Shown one piece after another: positions 8,581 through 53,243 of a stretch of 60,000 nucleotides of DNA. The position numbers were made by a program, and so were the translations under genes. The first letter of the stretch is position 1; every line of letters starts with the position of its first letter. The notes under the pieces are model-generated. The model did not search any database and was not told the origin of the DNA. It saw only the letters and a list, made by a program, of their open reading frames with translations. Origin of the DNA: Malacoraja senta (lineage: Eukaryota); assembly GCA_038087875.1 (NCBI GenBank), contig CM075990.1, positions 13,704,001-13,764,000 of the forward strand, written 5' to 3'.

Positions 8581-8760
8581 TCACTAGATTCTTGTCTGTC
8601 ATTGAATCATGTGATTGGCACAGGAAATCGGTGACACAAGCCATGATCTTATTGAGTGGAAGAGCACAAGGTACTCATGCCTCTAGATGGGGGAGATAGA
8701 GTCAGATGGACTACTCATGCCTCTATTTCTTACTTTAATTGCTTCAGTGGGTAAATGTAA

Positions 8761-8949
8761 AGGGCCTGTCCCACTTGGGCGTCATTTGCGCCTCACGCAG
8801 ACGGCGCTCGAAGATTTTGTACATCTCAAAATCCTGGGGCACCGCTCGTCACTGCCTACGTCACCACGCACCATGCGCGCGGCACGTCGTGACGCGTAAA
8901 TGATGTAGTGTAAATTACGCGCAAATGACGCCCAAGTGGGACAGGCCCT
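8761..8949. mobile_element. MITE (PIF/Harbinger-like)
   Basis: 31-bp TIR AGGGCCTGTCCCACTTGGGCGTCATTTGCGC; TAA on both sides. Confidence 0.85.
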
Positions 8950-11390
8950 TAAGAAAGTATGTTCATGGAGCACTGAGGTCTTAAAATCACATATGTGTTG
9001 AACCTGAGGGGTGCAGAATATTTAGGACTAGAATTAAGAATAACAGGAATCGATTTGAAGCCTGTAATCTGATTGAAGGGATTTAGTTAAACTGCATCAG
9101 TGAAATTAGCAATGCCTAAAAACATCATTAGCATCCCCATATGAGATTATTGCCTTTCAAAGTGGGTGATACTAATTTAGTTTGTGTTGCCTCACATTGA
9201 CTGCAGAGAAGAGTTAATAACTAATTCATGGTGATAATTACATTGAGTGACAATTGATTATAAAACCATGGAAAATGTATAAGGAAAGCAGAGTTTAAAT
9301 ACTGGGAATTTCTATCTGGGGAAGTACTGCCCTCATTTTGTCAGTGAAGCTTTATGAAGTAAGAATATTGTTTTACTGTTAACCCAAATCTAACAGTTGT
9401 CCGCCACATCTCATTCTTCTGAATTCTGAAGAATTAAGAGCCAGTCATCTTAATCTTGATTGATCTCAGCCTGACTGTGGATGGCATTGCTAAAGAACGA
9501 TACAGCTCAAAATGGCCAAACAAAATTGTCTTTATGCTTCAGCGTTATAGGTTTCAGTTTAGTTTATTGTCACGTGTACCGAGGTACAGTGAAAAGTTTT
9601 TGTTGCGTGCTATCAATATATCAACTATGTTGTTCGTCATCCACTTGGTGTGAAGCACTCCCTATGGGAAGTCCATTGAACTATGGGGAACAGTTGTCTT
9701 CCCAGGGCCTGAACAATGGTCAATTGTTCATCGTTATCCAAGCCTTCATGATCCATATCTCCACCCTTCAACATTGTTGCCTCATTCATGATGACGTTTG
9801 AAAAACTGATTCATAAATAGTTCCAAATAATATCATGTGACAGAGACCTGCATATAATGCAAGTCTGATCTACATATTGTGTGGGTCTAAGGTTGTGACC
9901 TTTGTCATAGATCTAGCTTTACAATTAAGAATGGCTTGCTATAGAAATGTGCAATTTGTACACTGTTCAGATGCATGTAATCAACTTGTATTTGTATTTT
10001 GTCAGCTACATCTTTATAAAACATCCCAAAACAACTTTCCATGAGCTCATGATTGATTATTCTTGTAATTCGGGAGGATTATTAGTAAAATTGGTTGAAA
10101 CATAAACATTGACATAGTTGCCCAGCGTTTAGATAATGCCAAAAGGGATATTGCCTCCATCTATGAGGATGGATAGGATTTAGGTAAATAGTGACACCTA
10201 CAGCAATGTAGCACTCCGTCAGTACTGCCTTGCTGACATACTTCATGTCTCAGGAATGGGGTTTCAATCCACAACCTTGAATCGTTGGAGAAGACCAAAG
10301 CTGCTCCATATGAGACAATGATTGTAGGTAGATCTCCATCCTTCAGACTTGATATGAATTTTGTAATGGCTCGTGTTAGCATCGTGTTCTTCAGAGGTCT
10401 CCACTGGCCAGTTTCACTGGAGCAAAAAACCACTCACGGCAACACATAATCAAATTATATTTTGACCTTGTCATTTGATCTTTCAACCTATTGGTTATTT
10501 CCAACGCCTGGACATTTTGAAGTTATTTATAAGCAGTGGTTGAGAGTTTTATTTAAAGATGAAAGTTTCCTTTTAGATTGTGTAGCTTGAGATATTCTGA
10601 GTATGCAGAATTATGAGCTTCAATTTATTTTTAAACCATGTTATGCCAGTTTATTTTTGATTCTTTGATTTTAGACTCTATTTTAAACTCTCTTTTACCT
10701 CAACTCTTCTCAAGGGTCAATAGCTTTATCAGCATGGGGAGATCATATATTTAAGACTTCTTCAACTATTGCATCTCAGTTGTTACACGTTTCCCTGGTC
10801 ACGTAATTCAGTTCCTACACCCTGTGATCAGGCACATTCCACAAGGGTGAAGTCCACCACTTGAGTATTTGGTGTAGTTCTGGTCAACACATTGCAGATA
10901 AAATGCGTAACTCTGGAGGGAATGCAGGGGAGATTTATGAGGATGTTGTCAGGGGTGGAATCTTGAAGCTATAAGGAACGATCACCTTGAATGAGATTGT
11001 TTCCTTTGGAGTTGAGGAGTTTGAGGGGAGAGTAATTGAGAAGTATGTGACATTATATGGGGCCTAGCTCAAAAGGACCCACGTACTGCAGCACAGGGGT
11101 CAAAAACATGGAGCCAAAAATATTAAGCAATTTGTTTGTTCCGTGTAGAGATGTGGATTTCTTTTTCACTGAGAGGGTGGTAAGGATCCAAAATTCACTG
11201 CCTGAAAGGGTGTTGGAGGGAGACACGGACATCACATTTAGAATCTACCTGATTGTGTACTAGAAGAGCTGGGACAATGGGACCTGGTGCTATAGAGTAG
11301 ATGTAGGCTGGGGCAGTCTGAACAAGGGTCTCGACCCAAAACGTCAGCCATTCCTTCTATCCAAAGGTGCTGCCTGTCCAGCTGAGTTAC

Positions 11391-42633: not shown

Positions 42634-43907
42634 GTAGATTCTGAGATAAATCTAACGCAACCTCTCACATTGTGGAAATATCTTGAAACGCTTTAGAAGT
42701 TATATTTCTGAAGTATGGACTTTGAATGTTCTGTAGGCAAGCACAATCATTGACCTTTGTTCAAAAAGGTCCTATAGACACATCTTTTCTGTGCAACAGA
42801 AATGTACACATTGCCAACTGGTGACACCATTGTAAATTGCTAATATCATTATATCCTGGTGATATCACTGGCAACTTTAATGCCACTAGATACCGGAATT
42901 ATTGCTATCATTTGACAAAGTTGCTGTATGTTGGCGACGCTGACACAATTTGTAATGTTACTGTCACCTCTCTGTTGACTCAGTGGTTCTGAGTCAGAAG
43001 GTTGTAGATTCAAGACTCATTCCTTTCACCAACATTACTAAATTCACATGATCTGATTATTATACCATTTTTATTCATGGAAATTTGGTGTATGCGAATT
43101 GGTCTGTGTGCTTTTCATATTCTAGCATTTACTACACTTCAAAAGTACACAATTGTCTGTAAAGTGCTTTGAAATATCCAGAATAAGATACAAAATAATA
43201 CCAAATCAAAAAAAAGTGCTGGAGTAATCAGCCCGGGTCAGGCAGTATCTCTAGAGAACATGGCAAGGCAATGCTTCATGGTGAGAGCTTTCTTCACACC
43301 CATCTGTATAATCTGTTTGACCTTTGTTTTTCTTTCTGTATCCTGAACCATGAATCCTGGTCAAGGTCTCTAGACATTTAGCGCACGTTACATTACTGAT
43401 ATATAAGGAGATAGCAACTGGGCAGATTCATGAGATTGAATAACACCTTCACTTCAGAGAGCTGGGGAAAGCCTGCCACTGGCAATATGTTGCCTCCCTG
43501 TGAAAGGATCGAACCCATGGCTGTCAATGCAGTGGGATAATTATTGAAGCAGACAAATGAGACTTTGCTTTGGTGCCTTAAACAAGGTTGACAAGGCTAA
43601 TCCTTCAGATATATTAAGCACTGGACTTGATCGATTTGCTAAGTGGGGCTGATTTTACTGAGGTCACATTGGAAGCATCACAGGAACAGAAGGAGAACAT
43701 TCAGCCCCAAGAGCCCGCTTCATCATGTCATTAGATCTTGGCTGATTTGTATTGTAACTATGCATATGTGAGTTTCATAACCCCTAACATCACTGCTTGA
43801 CAAAAATCAAATTTGCTTATGTGTAATCCCCCTCTCACCACTGGCTGCAAGTACAAAGAATTTGTAGTGAACGGCACAAATGTTAGTTCAATGCTTTCAT
43901 TTTTCAG

Positions 43908-44149
43908 GTGCCTCAGTTCCATTCAGGATCAATGAGGAGACCTCTGAGGTCAGTGTGGTGAAGCCTCTTGACAGGGAGCAGAGGGAGACGTACGACATCA
44001 TTGTCAAATGTACGTTGCGGACACTCGCCCAGATCATCCAAGTTGTGAGATCGTTGCATGTAACCGTCCTTGACAAGGGAGATAACGCCCCGTACATCCT
44101 CGATGGCAATGACACAGCCGAGGCTTTCATTGAGTTCAACAGGAAGGAG
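43908..44149 (+). CDS. RET: RET exon 4 (CLD2/CLD3 junction)
   Basis: ttttcAG acceptor; PFRINEETSEVSVVKPLDREQRETYDIIVKC...VLDKGDNAP...EFNRKE with cadherin LDRE motif; donor GAG|GTAGGA; 242 nt, phase 1-0. Confidence 0.96.
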
Positions 44150-45934
44150 GTAGGACTTCCAACAAGATTTGGCTGAGTAATTCTGTTTAACCTGTTGCAA
44201 AAAAGCGGAGTGCTGGAGGAACTCAGCAGGTCAGGCAGCATCTATGGAGGGAATGGATAGGCGATGTTTCTGGGTGGGATCCTTGGTCAACATTCAGAAT
44301 GTCGTCTGTCCATTCCCTCCGCAGATGTTGCTTGAGGCGCTGAGTTCCTCCAGCACATTTGTTTTTTTTTCAAGATTCCAGCATCTGCAATTTCTTGTCT
44401 CCAGATTAATGTCAGCTTCTGCTTCTGTTTTTTTTTATGTGGCAGTAGTGGAAGTAACCAATTTTAAATTTCCGGGTTGTCCCACAAAGGTGAATTCTCA
44501 ATACCCGCTCCACAAAATATCTGCTTGACTTCTTTAAATCATTCTGCATCGCTATTTCTTCAATATTAATATCACGCATTCATCCACTCTCTCTGCAGTT
44601 ACATTTAAACTGTGTGTGCAAATTTCCTGCTGAAAGTTTCAGTCCATCTAGAAACACAGCAACATGTATTAAGAGATTACAACCCCTTAACCATCCTCAG
44701 GACTTAATACTTTTTGAGCGGTTCAGTAACAGAGTCTTATTGGACTTTTTACTCCCTGCAAAATCACTGGATTTCCCTGTTTGAATTGCATCTGCTCCTT
44801 GCCTGCCAAGTTCTGAGGATGTTCAAATGGGCAGTCTAGGTCAGCTTTAGAATCCATGGAACTCCAATGACGTTGTGCTTACCAGCAGGCTAATGATTGT
44901 GCAGCAGATGCCTGGATCGAGATCATTTATAGGAAAACTAAGAAAATCCCAAAGGAGATCCAAATGCCCTTCCAACTGGTGATCCACATGCGTTTCAGTT
45001 TTGTGAGTTTTGTTAGACAACGGAAGTGGTATCATTCTCCCAGGTCAATGCCAACCACTGATGACCAATTAAATGTCCACTGTGAAACATTTTGCGCTGT
45101 CTCTACTTTCAGTGCCAGCATAGAGAGAGATGCAGCCTGCCCAGAATAACAGGAATGTGGCTAGGGTATTGAACCAGCAGCCAGATTTCAATCCAATTGC
45201 TCTGAAGATTTGAGTTGGAATCTCATGGTATCTAGAGAATTTAAATTCAAGAAATTAAGAACATTTTTTTTAAAAAGCTGTTCTCAGTGTTCATAACTGA
45301 AGTCTACCCATTGTTACAAACATTCATTTGACTCACTCGTGTGCTTCCTGACTGTTTACAAGTAATAGGAGTTGAAGAAGGCTAATCGGCCCATCAAGTC
45401 TACTCCGCCATTCAATCATAGCTGATCTCTGCCTCCTCATCCCATTTTCCTGCCTTCTCCCCATAACCCTTGACACCCGTTCTAATCAAGAATCCGTCTA
45501 TCTCTGCCTTAACTATCTCTGACTTGTCTCGGTGTGACTCCTGACCCATGAATGTGGTTGACTCTAAACTGTCTCCTCCATGTAGGGGCAGGTAGGGGAT
45601 GACAATAAAAGCCAGCATTGCCAGCCACATCCACATATCAGGAATGAATCATAAACAGATGATAGCTAAAGGAACTATATTCACTGCATTAACATTTTGA
45701 ATTCTTTATCCATTCACCATAGAAAACATTTAGGTTTATGATAATTTTATTGTCGTGTACCAAGGTACAGTGAAAAACCTATTTGCATACGACGCAATAA
45801 AATCAGATAATACTATACATAAAGACAAGCAGGCTGAACTCAAGTACAACAGATAGGGTGGCACAGTGGCGCAACGGGAGAGCTACTGCCTTACAGTGCC
45901 AGGGACCCAGGTTCGATCCTGATCCTGTGTGCTC

Positions 45935-46146
45935 TCTCACGATTCTGTATCTTCTGCCGGATGGGAGCAGGGAAAGGAAGGAATAACCAGGGTGGGACAA
46001 GTCTTTGATTGTGTTGGCTGCTTTTCCAAGACAGTGCAAATGGTAGATAGAGCACTGGCCTACATCCATAACTCTGAGGAATATCTTGCAGTCTTGGGCT
46101 GAGCTGTTCCCACACCAAGCTGCGATGCAATCTGACAGTAAGTTCT
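45935..46146 (-). mobile_element. Rex1/Babar-type LINE fragment split by the HERO-like insertion (continues 49691-49830)
   Basis: CIAAWCGNSSAQD...KDLSHPGYSFLSLLPSGRRYR in ORF 45803-46228. Confidence 0.75.
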
Positions 46147-49100
46147 TGAAGATCCACCAAGGGAAGAAAAAGTGCTTGAGAGAGCAGAAACATGGGCCTC
46201 GCATTGACCAGTACTTCTTACGAAGCAACCAGTCAAATCAGTCGAGTGAAGCACAGCGACGGGACACAAACCAAAGTTCGCAGAGCATCAGCACCCATGT
46301 CACTGAAGAGGGTGATACAAGCACAGAAATGCCGGTGGAGGAGCCCACGCAACAACTACAAAGACCTCCATTGGAGGGAAAGATCAAAGGGCACAAACCT
46401 GGAGTGAAATGGCCCAAGGCTGTTGAAAAGAAAGAGTGGGAGACGGTCAACAGTGACCTTATACATATCTTGGAGCAACAAACGGGCACAGCAGTGGAAA
46501 AGCTTGAAAGGATGGGCAACACAATCTACAGCTATGGAGAAGAACGGTTTGGGGTGAGTAAAGGGAGAGGTGGAAAGAAATTACCAACACCAATCAAGTC
46601 CAGGAGGCAGCAGGAGATCGAGAGGCTAATCAGAGAGAGGAGACAGTTGAAAAAGCAATGGAAAAAAGCAACTGACGCAGAGAGAGAAGGTCTCATGCTA
46701 CTCCAAGAGGACATCAAGAACCGATTGGCAACCTTGCGAAAAGCAGAGAACTTGAGGAAACTTCGCAAGAAGAAAGAACACACAAGAACACGGTTCTATA
46801 AAGACCCTTTCAAGTTCATCAAAGACCTCTTCGCAACTTTGAAAACATCAAAACAGGAATTGGAGGAACACCTGGAAAAGGCCCACAAAGACACGAAAAG
46901 GCATGAGCAGTTGGTCATCCCACATGACATCCCGCCTATTCAACCACCTGAATTCAACATGGACACCAGCCCTCCGAGATGGAAAGAGGTGGAGAACACG
47001 GTCCGGCGAGCAAGAGCAGCTTCAGCTCCGGGGCCAAACGGAGTACCATACAAGCTCTATAAGAACGCACCAGATGTGTTACGCTTTCTATGGAAGCTCA
47101 TGAGGGTGGTGTGGAAGAAGCAAACAATACCTAAGGCTTGGCGAAGGGCCGGCGGCGTGCTAATACCTAAAGAAAAGGATTCGTCAGACATCAGCCAATT
47201 CCGGCCAATATGTCTCCTCAACGTCGAGGGAAAAATCTTTTTTAGCATTGTATCACAAAGGCTGTCCACCTATCTGGTAACAAACAAGTACATTGATACA
47301 TCTGTACAGAAAGCAGGAATTCCAGGATTTTCGGGTTGCTTGGAGCATACAAGCATGATCTGGCACCAGATCCAAGCAGCTAAGAAGGACAAGAGAGACC
47401 TACATGTGATCTTCCTCGATCTGGCCAATGCATTTGGTTCAGTTCCCCATGAACTCCTTTGGGAATCTTTTGCCTTTTTCCATGTACCAGAGCTCATCAC
47501 CACACTGGTCAAGAAATATTACCAAGACCTGCAGCTGTGCTTCACAACAGCTGACTTCAGTACAACATGGCAGCGCTTGGAAGTAGGCATCATGGCAGGC
47601 TGCACAGTCTCACCCTTGGCCTTTACAATGGCCATGGAAGTCATCATCAGGGCCTCAAAATGGGTGGTGGGCGGTGAACGAACCAGGGCTGGGCTCCGTC
47701 TGCCACCCATCAGGGCATACATGGACGACATGACAACACTAACCACTACTGCAGCATGCACCAAGCGGCTACTTGGAAAGCTGCAGGAGAACATCAAGTG
47801 GGCCCGAATGAAAATCAAACCAAGTAAATCTCGAAGCATCTCCATAGTCAAGGGGGTGCTTAGAGACACAAGGTTCTGTATTGGTGACGACCCAATACCA
47901 ACAGTGTCTGAGCAGCCAGTTAAAAGCCTGGGAAGATGGTATAACGCAAGTCTCAAGGACAAAGAGCAGGTGCAACAACTAAGGCAAGAAATTGTCAATG
48001 GACTGGAGAACATCAATCAGACCCTACTGCCTGGGAAACTGAAGCTCTGGTGCCTACAGTTTGGACTCCTTCCTCAGACAATGTGGCCACTGACCGTTTA
48101 TGAAGCCCCAATAACAACTGTGGAGAAGATGGAGCGAACCATAACTTCATACGTGAAGAAATGGCTCGGTGTCCCACGATGTCTAACTAACATCGGCCTC
48201 TATGGCAAAGGGGTCCTGGAACTACCTCTCACTAGTCTAACAGAGGAATATAAGTGTTCTAAAGTAAGACTCCAGATGACACTGAGGGACTCTAGAGACA
48301 AGATCATCAGTGCTGTTGCGCCGCCCCTAGCAACTGGCCGGAAGTGGACACCATCTGATGCAGTACAGCAAGCTTCATCAGCCCTGAGGCACAAAGACAT
48401 AGTGGGGCAAGTCCAGCAGGGAAGAGGAGGCTTTGGCCTTACGACAAGTAAACCAACTTGGCGAAAGGCCACAACATCAGAGCGGAGGACGTTGGTGGTT
48501 GAGGAGGTGCGGCGACAGGAGGAGGCCGCAAGAAGTGCAAAGGCGGTCTCTCTTGCCAAGCAGGGGCAATGGATGCATTGGGAAGGTGTGGAGCGGAGGA
48601 AGGTCAGCTGGAAAGAACTATGGGAAATGGAAGCAAGCAAGATCAGCTTCATCATCAGAGCGACATATGACGTGCTTCCATCACCAAAGAACCTCCATCA
48701 GTGGTACGGCGAGGATCCAACCTGTGCCATCTGCCCAACTCCAGCGACCCTCAAACACATCATGGTAGGCTGCAAGACCAGCCTCACGCAAGGGAGATAC
48801 ACGTGGCGGCATAATTAGGTACTAAAAAGCCTGGCATCAGCCCTTGAGAACAGGCGGTGTGCGACCAACTCCTTGCCTCCGAGAGCAAGCAACCCTCCCC
48901 TAAGGGTAATAACCTTTGTCCGAGAAGGACAGAAAACTTCTAAACTTCCTTCCACCAGATCAGAAGAAGGAAGCCAATGCAGGGCCCGTGACTGGAGGAT
49001 GCTGGCGGACATCGGCCGACAACTAATTTTTCCACCTGAAATTGCTTCCACCACCCTCAGGCCAGACTTGGTGTTCTGGTCCCCTTCACAGAAGACTGCT

Positions 49101-49409
49101 TACATCATAGAGCTCACAGTTCCATGGGAGAACTCTGTTGAGGAGGCCTATGAGCGTAAGAAGCTGCGCTACGCAGAGCTTGCAGCAGAGGCAACGCAGC
49201 GTGGCTGGAACACCAAAGTCTATCCAGTTGAAGTGGGATGCAGAGGATTTGTTGCGTCATCTACCATCAGACTGCTGAAGGAGCTTGGAATCCACGGTCA
49301 GGCTCTGCGGAAGACCATAAGATCACTCTCAGAGGCGGCTGAAAGAAGCAGCCGGTGGATTTGGCTCAAGCGGAAAGACCCATGCTGGGCCCCAAGTATG
49401 TCGGGGTGA
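46147..49409 (+). pseudogene. RT + CCHC + restriction-like endonuclease polyprotein interrupted by one nonsense codon
   Basis: RT motifs APGPNG, FRPICLLN, FLDLANAFGSV, GIMAGC..SP, YMDD; CAICP..LKHIMVGC; WRHN*VL (TAG at 48816-48818); RPDLVFW..IIELTVPWE..AYERKKLRY. The two listed ORFs (46086 and 48873) are in the same frame. Confidence 0.92.
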
Positions 49410-49469
49410 ATCTTTGGGACGGTTTGACACGGGACATGCGCTGAGGGTTGATCATCCTGCAGCGGGCCG

Positions 49470-49544
49470 CCCTTGTGGAGGGTGTATAGTGTTAAAAGGC
49501 CGAAACACCCAGTGATGCAAGGGTACACTACTGATGATGTGTCC
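49470..49544 (+). ncRNA. Predicted non-circularly permuted hammerhead ribozyme with kink-turn in the LINE 3' UTR
   Basis: Core CUGAUGA 49531-37, GAAA 49502-05, GUA triplet 49484-86; helix III GGGUGU/ACACCC; helix I UAGUGU/ACACUA; short helix II G(U)GUC/GGCC. Confidence 0.72.
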
Positions 49545-51634
49545 TGTGCCCAACTGTCCTGAAGGTTACCCCCCCCACCCCCCCCCCCGATGTTGAGCGT
49601 CTACCACTCTCAACAATCAACGAATGTCGTGAAATGCTCCCCACCTATTGGCACAAGGGACTTCTTAACATCTTGTCCTGTGTATTTGATTCTGACAGTA
49701 AGTTCTCTGTGGTGCATCCGTAGTAGTTTGTAAGAGTCATTGGAGAAGTGATGAAGTTCCAAAGTCTCCTGAGGAACTCGAGGCATTGTGTGCCTTCTTG
49801 GCTGACTTTCAATGTAGGTTGGTCCCACGACTGATTGCAAGTAGCAAATGTGGAATAATTTGAGTTAAATTGGCAAGACCTCCTTCACATGACCCTTTGC
49901 TCAATCTTTATGAATCTACTTCCGTCCAGTTGTTCTGGCTCTATTCATTAGAAGAGATTTTCATTATTTCTCTAACAATGGATGTCAGCTCATTTATCAG
50001 TAGCTTCCCGGGTCATTTATATAAGTGTAATGTCTGCCATTCTTCAGTTTCCCTGGCATTTTTCCAGTAATAGAACATCTTCAATGCCATCTAGTAATTC
50101 CAGTTAAAGTGATTCAGTGCCTAGCCTTTCCTTTTGTACGTTCTTCCTCAGTCTTGCTCACTGCCTCCTTTTCTCCTGATATTGTCTCTACTGAACAATT
50201 TATATCCTTCTGGACATTTATCCCATTAACTGAAATTATTTCACCATGTCTCTGAGACACTAACGATGCCCAATCTATAAACCCTGCAACCCCCCCCACC
50301 CAGAACATGCATCTGTTTTTTTAAATATTTTACATTGATCCATCATACCACTGCCTTTGACTTCTCTTGTGGGATTTAATAACATCTTGATGCTGTTTAT
50401 CCCGCACTATTAGAATTAAAATTGAAAACTTTGAATTGTATTAACACTTGGGCTCTCTCGGACTTTGCTCCAAGGTGTTCACTTGCAGCTGCTGTGAACT
50501 CTCCACGAAAGGTTTAGCTGCGGCTCCATCATTCTACCTGTTGTACCTGCCAATCCCTCTGCTCCCTACTTTGTCTGGCTGGTACCCATTTAGTCCACAA
50601 AATGCTCTTTGTACAAATCTTAATTTGTAGAAAGAAAATTATAGTCTACATTGCAAGGATGAAAGGAAAGTAGGAGCATGAAAAGATGGGCTATTCAACC
50701 TGATGATGTTCTCCAATGAAGACTAGGTAGCAAATTCAATCCCATTCTTCTATGTAAAGGCAATGAAGATGCTCCTGATTGTGTGCAATGCTGTGTTCTA
50801 ACAGAGGTCAATGGAGAGAACAATCAGCATGAATATATCCAGGTGCCTTTTCATATAATTTCTATTTTTATTGATCTTTACTTCAATAAGAAGGGCCTGG
50901 AATCTTATGCAACACTAATGTTGCATTACCACTTAATGCCCTACTCTAAACTGCAAAATGACAGAAATTGCGGATTCTGCAGTATCAGGCTTTTATTGCA
51001 ATGGGCCAGATCATTGGAGCTGCGCTTGTTCTCCACTGTGCACGCTCCCCGGGCTTGCTGTCAGCCCACCTAGTTTCAGACTCACTATTCCTGCAGCAGC
51101 TCCCAAGAACCAATGACAGCCATGGATTGGAGCAAGTCCCTGCAAAGGAGCAAGGGATATATACAGAAGAAAGATAATAAGAAACTCTACAATCATGATG
51201 TCGTGTCATGATGTATGCAGCTTCAGCTATTTTTCATCCCAGGTGAAAACGATGGCAAATTACCATAATTAATTAAACAAAATATCTTCCACAATTATGT
51301 TTTTCTTTTCCATAAATCATTTAAAAGTTTATTAGGGAGGGATTTAATGATTGCATAAATTCAAGATCCACTTTGGGGACACGAAAGACTGCAGATGCTG
51401 GCATCCTGAACAAAACACAAAATGCTACAGGAAATCTGCAGGTCAGTCAGCATCTGTGGAAGGAAATGGACAGATGACATTTTGGGTTGGGCCCCTTTTT
51501 TTGAGAAGGATCCAGATCTGGCCGTTTCCCTCTACAGATGCTGCCTGGCCTGCTGAGTTCCTCCAGTAATTTGTTTTCCAAGATCCATGTTGCCTTTGGC
51601 ATCCCTTGTTTCTAAGTTTATTTTTATTTTGCAG

Positions 51635-51806
51635 CACACGGTGGTGACCGCTCTCTTTGTGTATGACACTGACAGCACCACTAAGTACACAACGACTGTG
51701 ATCGGGAACGATACGTGGATCACGGAGAACTTCCGTGTGAAGCCCACTGCTTTGGAGATACCAGCCAGCGCAGAAAGACCCGCTCGAGGGACGGTAAACA
51801 AATACG
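51635..51806 (+). CDS. RET: RET exon 5 (CLD3)
   Basis: ttttgcAG acceptor; HTVVTALFVYDTDSTTKYTTTVIGNDTWITENFRV...RGTVNKY; donor G|GTAAAC; 172 nt, phase 0-1. Confidence 0.92.
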
Positions 51807-53243
51807 GTAAACCCAAAGCACAAGCCTTACATTTGGCAAAGAGAGGCTGGGGAAAATAGATGTCAGAATCTAAAATAAAAGGTAGAGTTAAGAAGTGTCA
51901 CAGTGCCATTAGGGGTCAGGTTGGGTCCTTGGACAGGTTTGTAGCCGGGGGAGAATACAGCTCACTATATTTGCCTTCAGTGCATGGACTTTGAAATGCA
52001 AAAGGAAGGAAATCTTATGTTAGCAATGGGATCGTACTCATTTTTAATCATTGACCATTTGATTTTTATGTGATTTTGCTTATTGTACACCAGGGGCTTT
52101 TAGCCAATGTACAAAACAGTAAATGCTTTAGTTTCCTCAATAGAACTTAATGGTCAATGTCCAGATTTGTGGCTGATATAATATTATATTCATTCCTTTA
52201 ATGAATGGTAAGGTGAGGATGCTGATTTATCATTGGAAGAGGAGCATGTGTAGGTCTGCCTACACCAGCTTCAATGCCATGGCATGTCCAGGTTGCCTGA
52301 TACACAAATTCCATTACTTTCTGCTGTACACTAGACCCACTTCCTCACACGTTTCTCCAGCATTTCAGCCTGCAAGGTTCACCCAAAATAGACCTTCAGG
52401 TCATTGTCTACATGTGTGAATTCAATGTGGAGAGGATTCTCATGTACATACCGTCTGACTTCTGATGAGAAGATCTGAGGAATTTCACTGACATTTATTC
52501 TGTGATATTCAAGGAATACCTGTTTGAAAACTTGAGATAGATTGTGATACAGGTCAGGTCTTGTGATACAGGTCAACAGATCAATACAGCAATGACAGAA
52601 TGAAAGGCTAACAGTTAAATCAGTGCTTGTCCAAACCATTTGACAATAGTTTGGTCAAAATTCAATGAGGTTGATTGAAATCAGTTGAATACCAAAGAGA
52701 TAGAACAAAAGAGATGGATCATACCATCATAAAGATTTATGGCACATAAGTTACTCATCAACTTTTTCTGTCCGTGCCTGCTGACATAATATGTACAGCG
52801 AAATCCCATTATCCAGTTGTCAGTGTGTAACCTTGTAGATAACTGCACTTCAAGTGGTCATCCAAGTACTGAATGTGCTGAATTTCTGCACCTCCCGCCC
52901 TATTGTAGACTCTCAACACTCACAAAGAAACTGTTCACATTGGCATATCAAATTCAGCTTTATCCATCAAGTTTACATACAAGGGTCAATCTCACATTCT
53001 CACAATTGGGACTGTCGTGTGAATTAATTCTATTGAAACTTTCAACTACCCTTCAGTAGAAGAATTGACCTGACAAGTATTAAAGGAAAGTAGATGAGTA
53101 AATGCACAGATGGGTTGATTTAAAAGAGGTTGCGGAGGCAGCTTGTATGGAGTATAAATACCCGTCTTGGCTGTGTGGGTCGAGTGGCCTCTTTCTGCGC
53201 CGTGGACCCAATGTAATTTGCTGTATCTTCCTGTTTTATCCAG

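What the first reader, a model, noticed from the sequence alone, without database searches (positions are those of the whole stretch)
49470..49544. Strand-swapped (non-circularly permuted) hammerhead ribozyme in the 3' UTR of an RLE-type LINE
Seen: all hammerhead core nucleotides are present (C3UGAUGA9 at 49531-37, G12AAA at 49502-05, U16.1-A17 at 49485-86). There are two perfect 6-bp helices: III GGGUGU 49480-85 / ACACCC 49505-10, and I UAGUGU 49487-92 / ACACUA 49525-30. Helix II is short and bulged (G49539, GUC 49541-43 with GGCC 49498-501). The strand order is [UH+helix I] - [GAAA] - [CUGAUGA]. That is none of the three circular permutations (types I-III) and requires a pseudoknotted topology, so standard hammerhead searches would miss it. 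Known: R2-group elements usually carry HDV-like ribozymes at the 5' end, and non-circularly permuted hammerheads have been reported, so novelty for this family needs a literature check. Inference: predicted cleavage after A49486, about 200 nt upstream of the element 3' end (49690), with both products held together by base pairing. This could separate the mRNA role from the template role or regulate retrotransposition.
Basis: partly seen in the sequence, partly recalled or inferred. Interest (0 to 1): 0.9.

Follow-up and report, generated by a model that had tools for sequence, protein, structure and literature searches.

The report
Split-core hammerhead ribozyme in tandem LINEs
A family of animal jumping genes carries a conserved self-cutting RNA of the hammerhead type, wired in a strand order we found no description of, and their head-to-tail copies suggest that they are copied from a circular RNA.

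Summary
Core, helix I and helix III are at the stated places. They are conserved in 11 related LINE lineages, with compensatory changes, including the core C3-G8 pair becoming U-A twice. Helix II does not use the bulged downstream strand. It pairs with a strand upstream of the cleavage site (49465-68): 32 of 33 cells pair, with four pair types at one position. The strand after CUGAnGA pairs far upstream instead, so two extra helices sit between A9 and G10.1. This is a further permutation of published type SGC, breaking a block its authors assumed indivisible. The host is a young HERO-like element with no fixed 5' end. Of 90 copies holding the 5' UTR start, 87 run on into the previous unit's 3' end, and 65 pass that unit's scissile site. 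Best model: cleavage and ligation give a circular template that is reverse-transcribed by rolling. The fold is well supported; cleavage and circles are inferred, not shown. No prior report found.

The parts
46147..49693 (+). 5'-truncated copy of a young HERO-like RLE non-LTR retrotransposon (full unit 3954 bp; open frame of 1181 codons in intact copies)
   Evidence: 99.3% identical to the unit from L031, matching from unit position 382; 511 exact hits of a 3'-end 29-mer and 140 of a 5'-UTR 28-mer in G000
46132..46146 (+). left copy of a 15-bp target-site duplication (right copy 49692-49706)
46147..49409 (+). remnant ORF: RT (Pfam RVT_1), CCHC knuckle, restriction-like endonuclease motif; premature stop at 48816-18 in this copy
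   Evidence: knuckle and RLE motif read by eye, Pfam names only RVT_1
49428..49438 (+). helix Pa, 5' strand (pairs with 49538-49548)
   Evidence: MFE and centroid, pair probability about 1.0; covaries across lineages
49440..49463 (+). hairpin Pb; loop holds a palindromic hexamer in 5 of 11 lineages, a short 3-4 nt loop in the other 6
49465..49468 (+). true helix II 5' strand; G49465 is G10.1 (pairs with 49498-49501)
   Evidence: contiguous 4-5 bp helix with the strand before GAAA in 10 of 11 lineages; 32 of 33 cells paired at positions 2-4; 96.7% of cells paired in 6 lineages, 3 of 5 pairs with double changes
49469..49477 (+). helix I-II interaction helix, 5' strand (pairs with 49516-49524); counterpart of the 'I' helix of type SGC
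   Evidence: 33 of 33 cells paired at three variable positions, 0 of 100000 label shuffles
49480..49486 (+). helix III strand and H17; predicted cleavage between 49486 and 49487
   Evidence: H17 is C in 6, U in 3, A in 2, never G
49487..49492 (+). helix I strand after the cut (pairs with 49525-49530)
   Evidence: 54 of 55 cells paired, 4 of 5 pairs with double changes
49498..49510 (+). block G: helix II 3' strand (C11.1 = 49501), G12-A13-A14, helix III strand
49516..49524 (+). interaction helix, 3' strand
49525..49537 (+). helix I strand and core C3-U4-G5-A6-N7-G8-A9
   Evidence: N7 is U in 7, G in 3, A in 1; C3-G8 is C-G in 9 and U-A in 2 lineages
49523..49534 (+). hot spot of 5' truncation in other copies, read as a reverse-transcription stall at the folded core
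   Evidence: 8 ends with different flanks in 12 nt, 0.63 expected; window chosen after seeing the data
49688..49693 (+). element 3' end, where cDNA starts; in tandem copies it joins the 5' UTR of the next unit

Best explanation
The RNA at 49428-49548 folds into a hammerhead ribozyme whose core is assembled from four separate strands: helix II 5' strand, then the cleavage block, then GAAA, then CUGAnGA. Two extra helices (Pa, Pb) are inserted between A9 and G10.1 as a four-way junction. SHOWN by comparison: the helices and core (about 0.9). INFERRED from hammerhead chemistry: it cuts after 49486, leaving a 2',3'-cyclic phosphate and a 5'-OH (about 0.85). INFERRED mechanism (about 0.5): transcripts that run through tandem copies are cut at two successive ribozymes. 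About 30 base pairs link the two halves of the motif, so the head and tail of a unit-length RNA can be held together and ligated, by the reverse reaction or a host ligase, into a circle of about 3.95 kb. The element's protein nicks target DNA, primes at the fixed site 206 nt downstream of the ribozyme, and rolls round the circle until it falls off. This gives copies with one fixed 3' end, random 5' ends and seamless head-to-tail junctions, and it regenerates the tandem arrangement needed for the next round.
For: Fold: helices I, III and C3-G8 99.2% paired, 24 double-change cells, 0 of 500 shuffles. Upstream helix II 32 of 33 cells against 0.41 for mismatched lineages, 0 of 100000 label shuffles. 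U3-A8 replaces C3-G8 in 2 of 11 lineages; C3-G8 is a core pair (PMC11300833, passage). Lineages are 34-80% identical in the protein stretches compared. Architecture: 87 of 90 copies with the 5'-UTR start continue 15 nt or more into the previous unit; the junction 20-mer is exact in 68 and within one mismatch in 81; 56 run on past about 480 nt. L031 holds two full units plus at least 811 nt. No self-insertion duplication in 19 of 19 arrays with both ends read. Flanks of one array join into a repeat found contiguous in other loci, and of another into one RT reading frame. Tandem junctions also occur in four other lineages (L078; L099 and L105; L143; L134). 8 independent 5' ends cluster at the core. 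Penelope-like elements and retrozymes pair hammerheads with tandem copies and proposed or shown circles (PMC6765202, section 11 part 2).
Against: No cleavage or circle was observed. No pile-up of 5' ends at the scissile site: 1 ambiguous end of 90, 0.43 expected. That fits circles but equally fits uncut templates. Target duplications are mostly 5 nt or shorter, so single-event insertion of arrays is supported in only 2 cases. The extensive pairing that would hold ends together also makes strand exchange between neighbouring ribozymes hard. No natural hammerhead with helices between A9 and G10.1 is known to me, so activity is an extrapolation from one-nucleotide insertions. Tandem junctions are rare in the older lineages (2 of 30, 1 of 30, 1 of 43, 0 of 8 loci). 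Lineages are related, so shuffles overstate significance. The G10.1 register was picked as the best run within 3-9 nt of an anchor.
Confidence: 0.5

Rival explanations
1. Same fold and cleavage, but no circle. As proposed for Penelope-like elements, the ribozyme of the upstream partial copy cuts read-through RNA to give an uncapped mRNA 5' end and may help translation. Uncut multimeric transcripts serve as templates.
For: In tandem the cut lies about 430 nt before the next open frame. Hammerhead cleavage promotes cap-independent translation in viral UTRs (PMC13725137, passages). Published SGC ribozymes are slow, 0.007-0.13 per min (PMC10085705, section 16), so uncut multimers would exist. 5' ends are about 2.8-fold denser in the first 212 nt beyond the junction than in the next 270 (25 of 90, then 9 of 65).
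Against: Multimer templates can only shorten with each round, yet seamless junctions persist in five lineages down to about 40% protein identity. No fixed upstream boundary is seen; 6 of 30 run on past 1490 nt. Part of the early excess is the stall cluster.
Confidence: 0.25
2. Nicked circle with precise template jumping: the unit RNA is cut but not ligated. Its two ends stay paired inside the ribozyme fold, and the RT crosses the nick as R2 RT crosses between templates.
For: Both ends are held by helices II, III, Pa and the interaction helix. R2 RT synthesises across non-continuous templates (title in the reference list of PMC6765202; details recalled).
Against: R2 jumps usually add or lose nucleotides (recalled). 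The 30 best-matching copies show no insertion or loss around the scissile site (these were chosen for high identity), and truncations cluster 36-47 nt downstream of the site, not at it.
Confidence: 0.12
3. The fold is kept mainly as a protein-binding or dimerisation element and seldom or never cuts.
For: 23 of 24 terminal units read through the site. The Pb loop is palindromic in 5 lineages. Two lineages carry U3-A8, which lowers activity in some hammerheads (recalled).
Against: Conservation follows the catalytic rules exactly: H17 never G, N7 free, C3-G8 covarying, G10.1-C11.1 kept in 10 of 11.
Confidence: 0.08
4. One reading: plain type SGC with a short bulged helix II from the strand after CUGAUGA, possibly as an alternative switch state.
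For: That 4-bp bulged helix can be drawn in 3 lineages (window, L075, F4). In this register 23 of 44 cells pair and 299 of 100000 label shuffles reach the observed count. The window shows the CUGAUGA-U-G of the published descriptor (supplement part 8).
Against: Six lineages have C after A9 and cannot form G10.1-C11.1 downstream. The published descriptor fails in 11 of 11. Duplex energy is -0.7 kcal/mol, against -5.9 for the upstream helix and -15.4 for Pa.
Confidence: 0.05

Closest known systems
Type-SGC / CSG non-circularly permuted hammerheads (Eckert et al. 2023, PMC10085705; sections 13-16 and 18 part 1, supplement parts 1 and 8 read)
   Same: Same cyclic strand order, short linker from helix I to helix II, a helix joining the far sides of helices I and II, and usually one unpaired nucleotide before G10.1.
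   Different: Here the helix II 5' strand is moved to the 5' end and two helices sit between A9 and G10.1; the paper assumes this block cannot be interrupted. Its rearranged ribozymes come from assembled metatranscriptomes (supplement note 1) plus one bacterial GCS candidate; its main text mentions no fish or vertebrate.
Penelope-like elements with pLTR hammerheads (PMC6765202, section 11 part 2)
   Same: Autonomous retroelement of 3-4 kb, hammerhead near the unit boundary, partial-tandem copies, circular intermediate proposed.
   Different: PLEs have a GIY-YIG endonuclease and minimal type I hammerheads acting as dimers. This element has a non-LTR RT with CCHC and RLE motifs and a large monomeric, double-pseudoknotted hammerhead.
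Retrozymes (PMC4918200, PMC7229834; search listings and abstracts' starts only)
   Same: Hammerhead-delimited units, tandem copies, circular RNA.
   Different: Retrozymes are small and non-coding, with circularly permuted hammerheads.
R2 and related non-LTR elements with HDV-like 5' ribozymes (PMC13580325 passages; PMC6765202)
   Same: Single ORF with RT and restriction-like endonuclease; a ribozyme processes read-through RNA.
   Different: HDV fold at a defined 5' end and a site-specific target. Here a hammerhead lies downstream of the ORF, there is no defined 5' end, and 58 distinct 3' flanks were seen.
HERO clade (PMC4640811, passages)
   Same: RLE-encoding, largely non-site-specific, widespread in fish and marine invertebrates by the names on homologous proteins.
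   Different: No ribozyme or tandem architecture found described for the clade. The clade label for this element is recalled, not tested against named HERO sequences.

Membership tests
hammerhead ribozyme | core C3UGANGA9 and G12AA14 | tested here: met
   present in the window; core pattern in 11 of 11 lineages, GAA in 10 of 11 (one single copy has A at 12)
hammerhead ribozyme | A15.1-U16.1 pair and H17 not G | tested here: met
   U-A in 11 of 11; H17 is C 6, U 3, A 2
hammerhead ribozyme | helices I and III with covariation | tested here: met
   99.2% of cells paired, 7 of 11 pairs with double changes
hammerhead ribozyme | helix II closed by G10.1-C11.1 | tested here: met
   with the upstream strand: G-C in 10, G-U in 1
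hammerhead ribozyme | C3-G8 tertiary Watson-Crick pair | tested here: met
   C-G in 9, U-A in 2 lineages
hammerhead ribozyme | site-specific self-cleavage after H17 | not testable with these tools
   no raw-read RNA run was offered
type-SGC hammerhead | 5'-3' order cleavage block, GAAA block, CUGAnGA | tested here: met
type-SGC hammerhead | block C unbroken: helix II 5' strand within 1-2 nt after A9 | tested here: not met
   descriptor fails in 11 of 11; a downstream contiguous run of 4 bp in only 1 of 11, 0-2 bp in the rest
type-SGC hammerhead | helix joining the far sides of helices I and II | tested here: met
   6-9 bp in 11 of 11; 33 of 33 cells at variable positions
HERO clade (RLE non-LTR) | single ORF with RT, CCHC knuckle and restriction-like endonuclease | tested here: met
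   RVT_1 E 3e-23; best PDB hits are R2 proteins; knuckle and RLE motif read by eye in P0001
HERO clade (RLE non-LTR) | RT phylogeny groups with named HERO elements | not testable with these tools
   no named HERO sequence among the hits; the tree (quick search) has no reference rows
HERO clade (RLE non-LTR) | mostly no target specificity | tested here: met
   58 distinct 3' flanks
Penelope-like element | GIY-YIG endonuclease | tested here: not met
   Pfam at E 0.1 finds only RVT_1 in P0001
retrozyme | non-coding unit | tested here: not met
   1181-codon open frame in a 3954-bp unit
rolling-circle retroelement (works like) | covalently closed RNA intermediate | not testable with these tools
   only the genomic footprint could be read

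The most novel reading that the evidence does not exclude
HERO-like elements are autonomous, protein-coding LINEs that retrotranspose from a circular RNA. The circle is made by a new, seventh kind of hammerhead permutation whose split core, four-way junction and inter-locked halves act as a cut-and-join device. The device is shared across fish and probably the wider clade.
Probability: 0.45. Interest if true: 0.93.

Novelty: new variant of a known kind. Interest (0 to 1): 0.86.

Why it matters
RNA structure: it would be a natural hammerhead in which the catalytic block held to be indivisible is split, outside the six permutations listed so far. It would also be the first non-circular permutation in animal genomes that our searches show. 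Descriptor and Rfam searches miss it by construction. Retrotransposon biology: non-LTR elements are taught to copy a linear RNA from its free 3' end. A family with no 5' end and seamless repeats makes the long-proposed circular-template model (Penelope, retrozymes) testable in an intact, recently active, single-ORF element. It also bears on RLE retrotransposons as gene-insertion tools. Host side: hundreds of copies exist, and this one lies sense in a ret intron, where cleavage could affect the pre-mRNA.

Tried and rejected
Rfam: no gathering hit; weak sR52 and sR1 hits rejected as chance. Folding only 49460-49560 gave z -0.51; 49425-49552 gave z -1.92, 6 of 200 shuffles as good, so energy alone is weak evidence. 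Sequencing runs: no RNA holder listed on record. Four runs laid were contigs and cannot show ends; they carry this and sister motifs, nothing on cleavage. Viral collection: nothing in 2 scans. Pile-up of 5' ends at the scissile site: looked for, not found. TSDs around whole arrays: 5 nt or less in 19 of 19 read, 1 of 20 ends not reached; inconclusive. Internal priming tested by 3' microhomology running past the unit end: 11 of 41 match the next base, near chance; 7 of 58 rows with an earlier mismatch were set aside. Self-targeted insertion rejected: no unit-start duplication in 19 left flanks and no scarred junctions as a rule. One search used a mistyped helix I and is replaced. MAFFT misregistered the upstream helix II strand between the two motif subgroups, so the tool count for helix II covers 6 lineages and the 11-lineage count rests on an anchored script. 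The automatic Pa pick was wrong for L075 and L224, so its Pa total (43 of 44) is not relied on; by eye these give 7 of 8 bp and 3 bp. Two own-genome protein searches mostly returned lineages already held. Earlier scan findings: none.

Full report
1. Observation. A scan for that strand order finds only this site in the window and nothing in 200 Markov resamples of it. Rfam does not know it. The order cleavage block, GAAA, CUGAnGA is type SGC of Eckert et al. (PMC10085705; I read sections 13-16, section 18 part 1, passages, and supplement parts 1 and 8 of 42). Their rearranged ribozymes come from metatranscriptomes. They assume that CUGAnGA and its two neighbouring helix strands form one block that cannot be interrupted.

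2. The element. The motif lies 19 nt after the stop of an RT-CCHC-RLE reading frame. The window copy is 5'-truncated, has a premature stop at 48816-18 and a 15-bp target duplication. It sits sense between two ret-like exons. The family is young and large: the 40 best matches are 99-100% identical, there are 511 exact hits of a 3'-end pattern, and intact copies have an 1181-codon frame in a 3954-bp unit. Relatives are named from many fish, lamprey, amphioxus and bivalves. I call it HERO-like from recall; no named HERO sequence was available.

3. Relatives. I gathered 11 lineages: seven from the own genome (F1, F2, F3, F3b, F4, F5, F6) and four from public contigs (L075, L077, L078, L224). Two further contigs (L222, L223) end before the 3' UTR, and L076 duplicates L075. 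Identity to the window family over the C-terminal stretches compared is 34-80% (only 17-54 residues for three lineages). All 11 carry the motif in the same position. Multi-copy lineages were represented by a consensus of the copies with an intact core context (30 of 30, 24 of 30, 19 of 28, 5 of 5, 28 of 30, 8 of 8) or by one real copy. On a MAFFT alignment of real copies, helices I and III and the C3-G8 pair are 99.2% paired with 24 double-change cells; 0 of 500 shuffles reach this, and slid controls give 31-53%. H17 is never G and N7 is free. C3-G8 becomes U3-A8 in F5 and L078. That pair is part of the active site (PMC11300833, passage), so its covariation is the strongest sign of selection on catalysis. 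Six teleost proteins read through into the motif and end at the codons of helix III, which traces it to further species.

4. The correction. Six lineages have C's after A9, so G10.1 cannot follow the core. In 10 of 11 lineages the strand before GAAA instead forms a contiguous 4-5 bp helix with a strand 5' of the cleavage site; the eleventh has one mismatch. Examples are GGCC/GGCC in the window, GGGUC/GACCC in F3, GUUGA/UCAAC in F2 and GCUCC/GGAGC in L224. At positions 2-4, 32 of 33 cells pair, against 0.41 for mismatched lineages, and 0 of 100000 label shuffles match it. The tool count on six well-aligned lineages agrees. Directly 3' of this strand begins a 6-9 bp helix whose partner precedes helix I, the same arrangement as the I-II interaction helix of SGC. 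The strand after A9 pairs far upstream (Pa), enclosing a hairpin (Pb) that ends about one nucleotide before G10.1. The nested MFE and centroid of 49425-49552 give exactly Pa, Pb, the interaction helix and helix III, leaving the strands 49465-68 and 49525-30 unpaired for the two pseudoknots. So this is the SGC/CSG/GCS cycle opened inside block C, with two helices inserted at the A9/G10.1 step. One extra nucleotide is tolerated there in SGC and in a viroid hammerhead (title seen; details recalled). Caveats: lineages are related, and the register was chosen near an anchor.

5. Architecture. Copies form head-to-tail arrays at 3.9-4.0 kb spacing. Of 140 places with the 5'-UTR start (100 listed, 90 examined), 87 run on 15 nt or more into the 3' end of another unit and 56 past about 480 nt. 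The junction 20-mer is exact in 68 and within one mismatch in 81. There is no fixed 5' end. Sixty-five pass the upstream scissile site; one end is compatible with the site itself, with 0.43 expected. Eight ends with different flanks fall in 49523-49534, where an RT moving 3' to 5' meets the core; 0.63 are expected, p about 1.5e-5 after allowing for 40 windows, and two duplicated loci were counted once. Among 24 terminal units sampled by the 3' end, 23 extend through the site. No array shows the duplication expected from self-insertion (0 of 19). In two arrays the flanks rejoin into one pre-existing repeat. Tandem junctions also occur in F2 (2 of 30 loci), F4 (1 of 30), F3 (1 of 43) and L078, and none in F5 (0 of 8). 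A small hairpin just after the junction recurs in all five.

6. Mechanism. The footprint requires templates that are continuous across the unit junction and across the scissile bond, often twice per cDNA, and a way of regenerating tandems over long times. A circle made by ribozyme cleavage and ligation, primed at a fixed internal site and copied by rolling, explains all of this with one device (0.5). It also gives the interlocked halves of this permutation a purpose: holding the ends together. The main rival is cleavage for mRNA 5'-end formation and translation, with uncut multimers as templates (0.25). Nothing here shows cleavage or circles directly; the four runs laid were contigs.

7. Novelty. 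Ten full-text searches found no report of a hammerhead in HERO or other RLE elements and no other paper on type SGC: non-circular permutation, HERO with ribozyme (23), HERO with tandem (31), type-SGC (55, one paper), hammerhead with non-LTR, rolling circle and fish (56), Hero with hammerhead (63, none), Penelope and retrozymes (77), hammerhead variants with added stems (85), HERO clade (97), hammerhead with restriction-like endonuclease (108, one R2 paper, listing only). The library lacks most subscription papers and Repbase Reports. Fell et al. 2025 and Weinberg et al. 2015 were not held; the latter describes variants with added helices and could hold a precedent for the inserted junction. 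The SGC alignments in the Eckert supplement were searched for two terms, not read. I rate it a new variant of a known kind: known chemistry, new topology, new host, and a possibly new replication route for a LINE.

8. Verdict. Interest 0.86.

Noticed in passing
window 43871-44176 and 51557-51859 (+): Exons of a ret-like gene (cadherin and RET_CLD3 matches); the element lies sense in the intron between them, so cleavage could touch the host pre-mRNA.
   Followed up: partly
window 49448-49454; L075, L113, L138, L148: The Pb loop holds a palindromic hexamer in 5 lineages, a possible kissing-loop dimer signal; the other 6 have a short loop instead.
   Followed up: no
P0016, P0110, P0112, P0118, P0120, P0121 C-termini: In these teleost proteins the ORF runs through the 5' half of the ribozyme and ends at the codons of helix III. 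By the F3 sequence the stop codon would begin right after the cut, so a cleaved linear RNA would lack its stop.
   Followed up: partly
L031 unit positions 7-60; L078, L099, L105, L134, L143: A small conserved hairpin and a downstream motif just after the unit junction, shared by five lineages; a candidate protein-binding or priming signal.
   Followed up: partly
L036 about 1575-1581: Tandem junction followed after 7 nt by a jump to unit position 347, which looks like a microhomology template switch.
   Followed up: no
L043 element flanks: Target duplication of about 50 bp, whereas most copies have 5 nt or less; window copy 15 bp.
   Followed up: no
L224 (contig of a bacterial MAG), L222, L223 (short contigs of bacterial isolates): Animal-type LINE sequence in prokaryote assemblies, most likely host or sample contamination.
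   Followed up: no
G000 C685, C5931, C1502, C316, C3258: F3-type copies with identical scores, some about 5.8 kb apart, suggest the element is embedded in a larger duplicated or satellite unit.
   Followed up: no
L031 reoriented 8589-9999: The array is inserted in another LINE with a long open frame of a different (L1/Tx1-like by eye) type.
   Followed up: no
run X3, record 9: A 60-nt contig joins 49447 to 49530, skipping most of the ribozyme; single contig, origin unclear.
   Followed up: no
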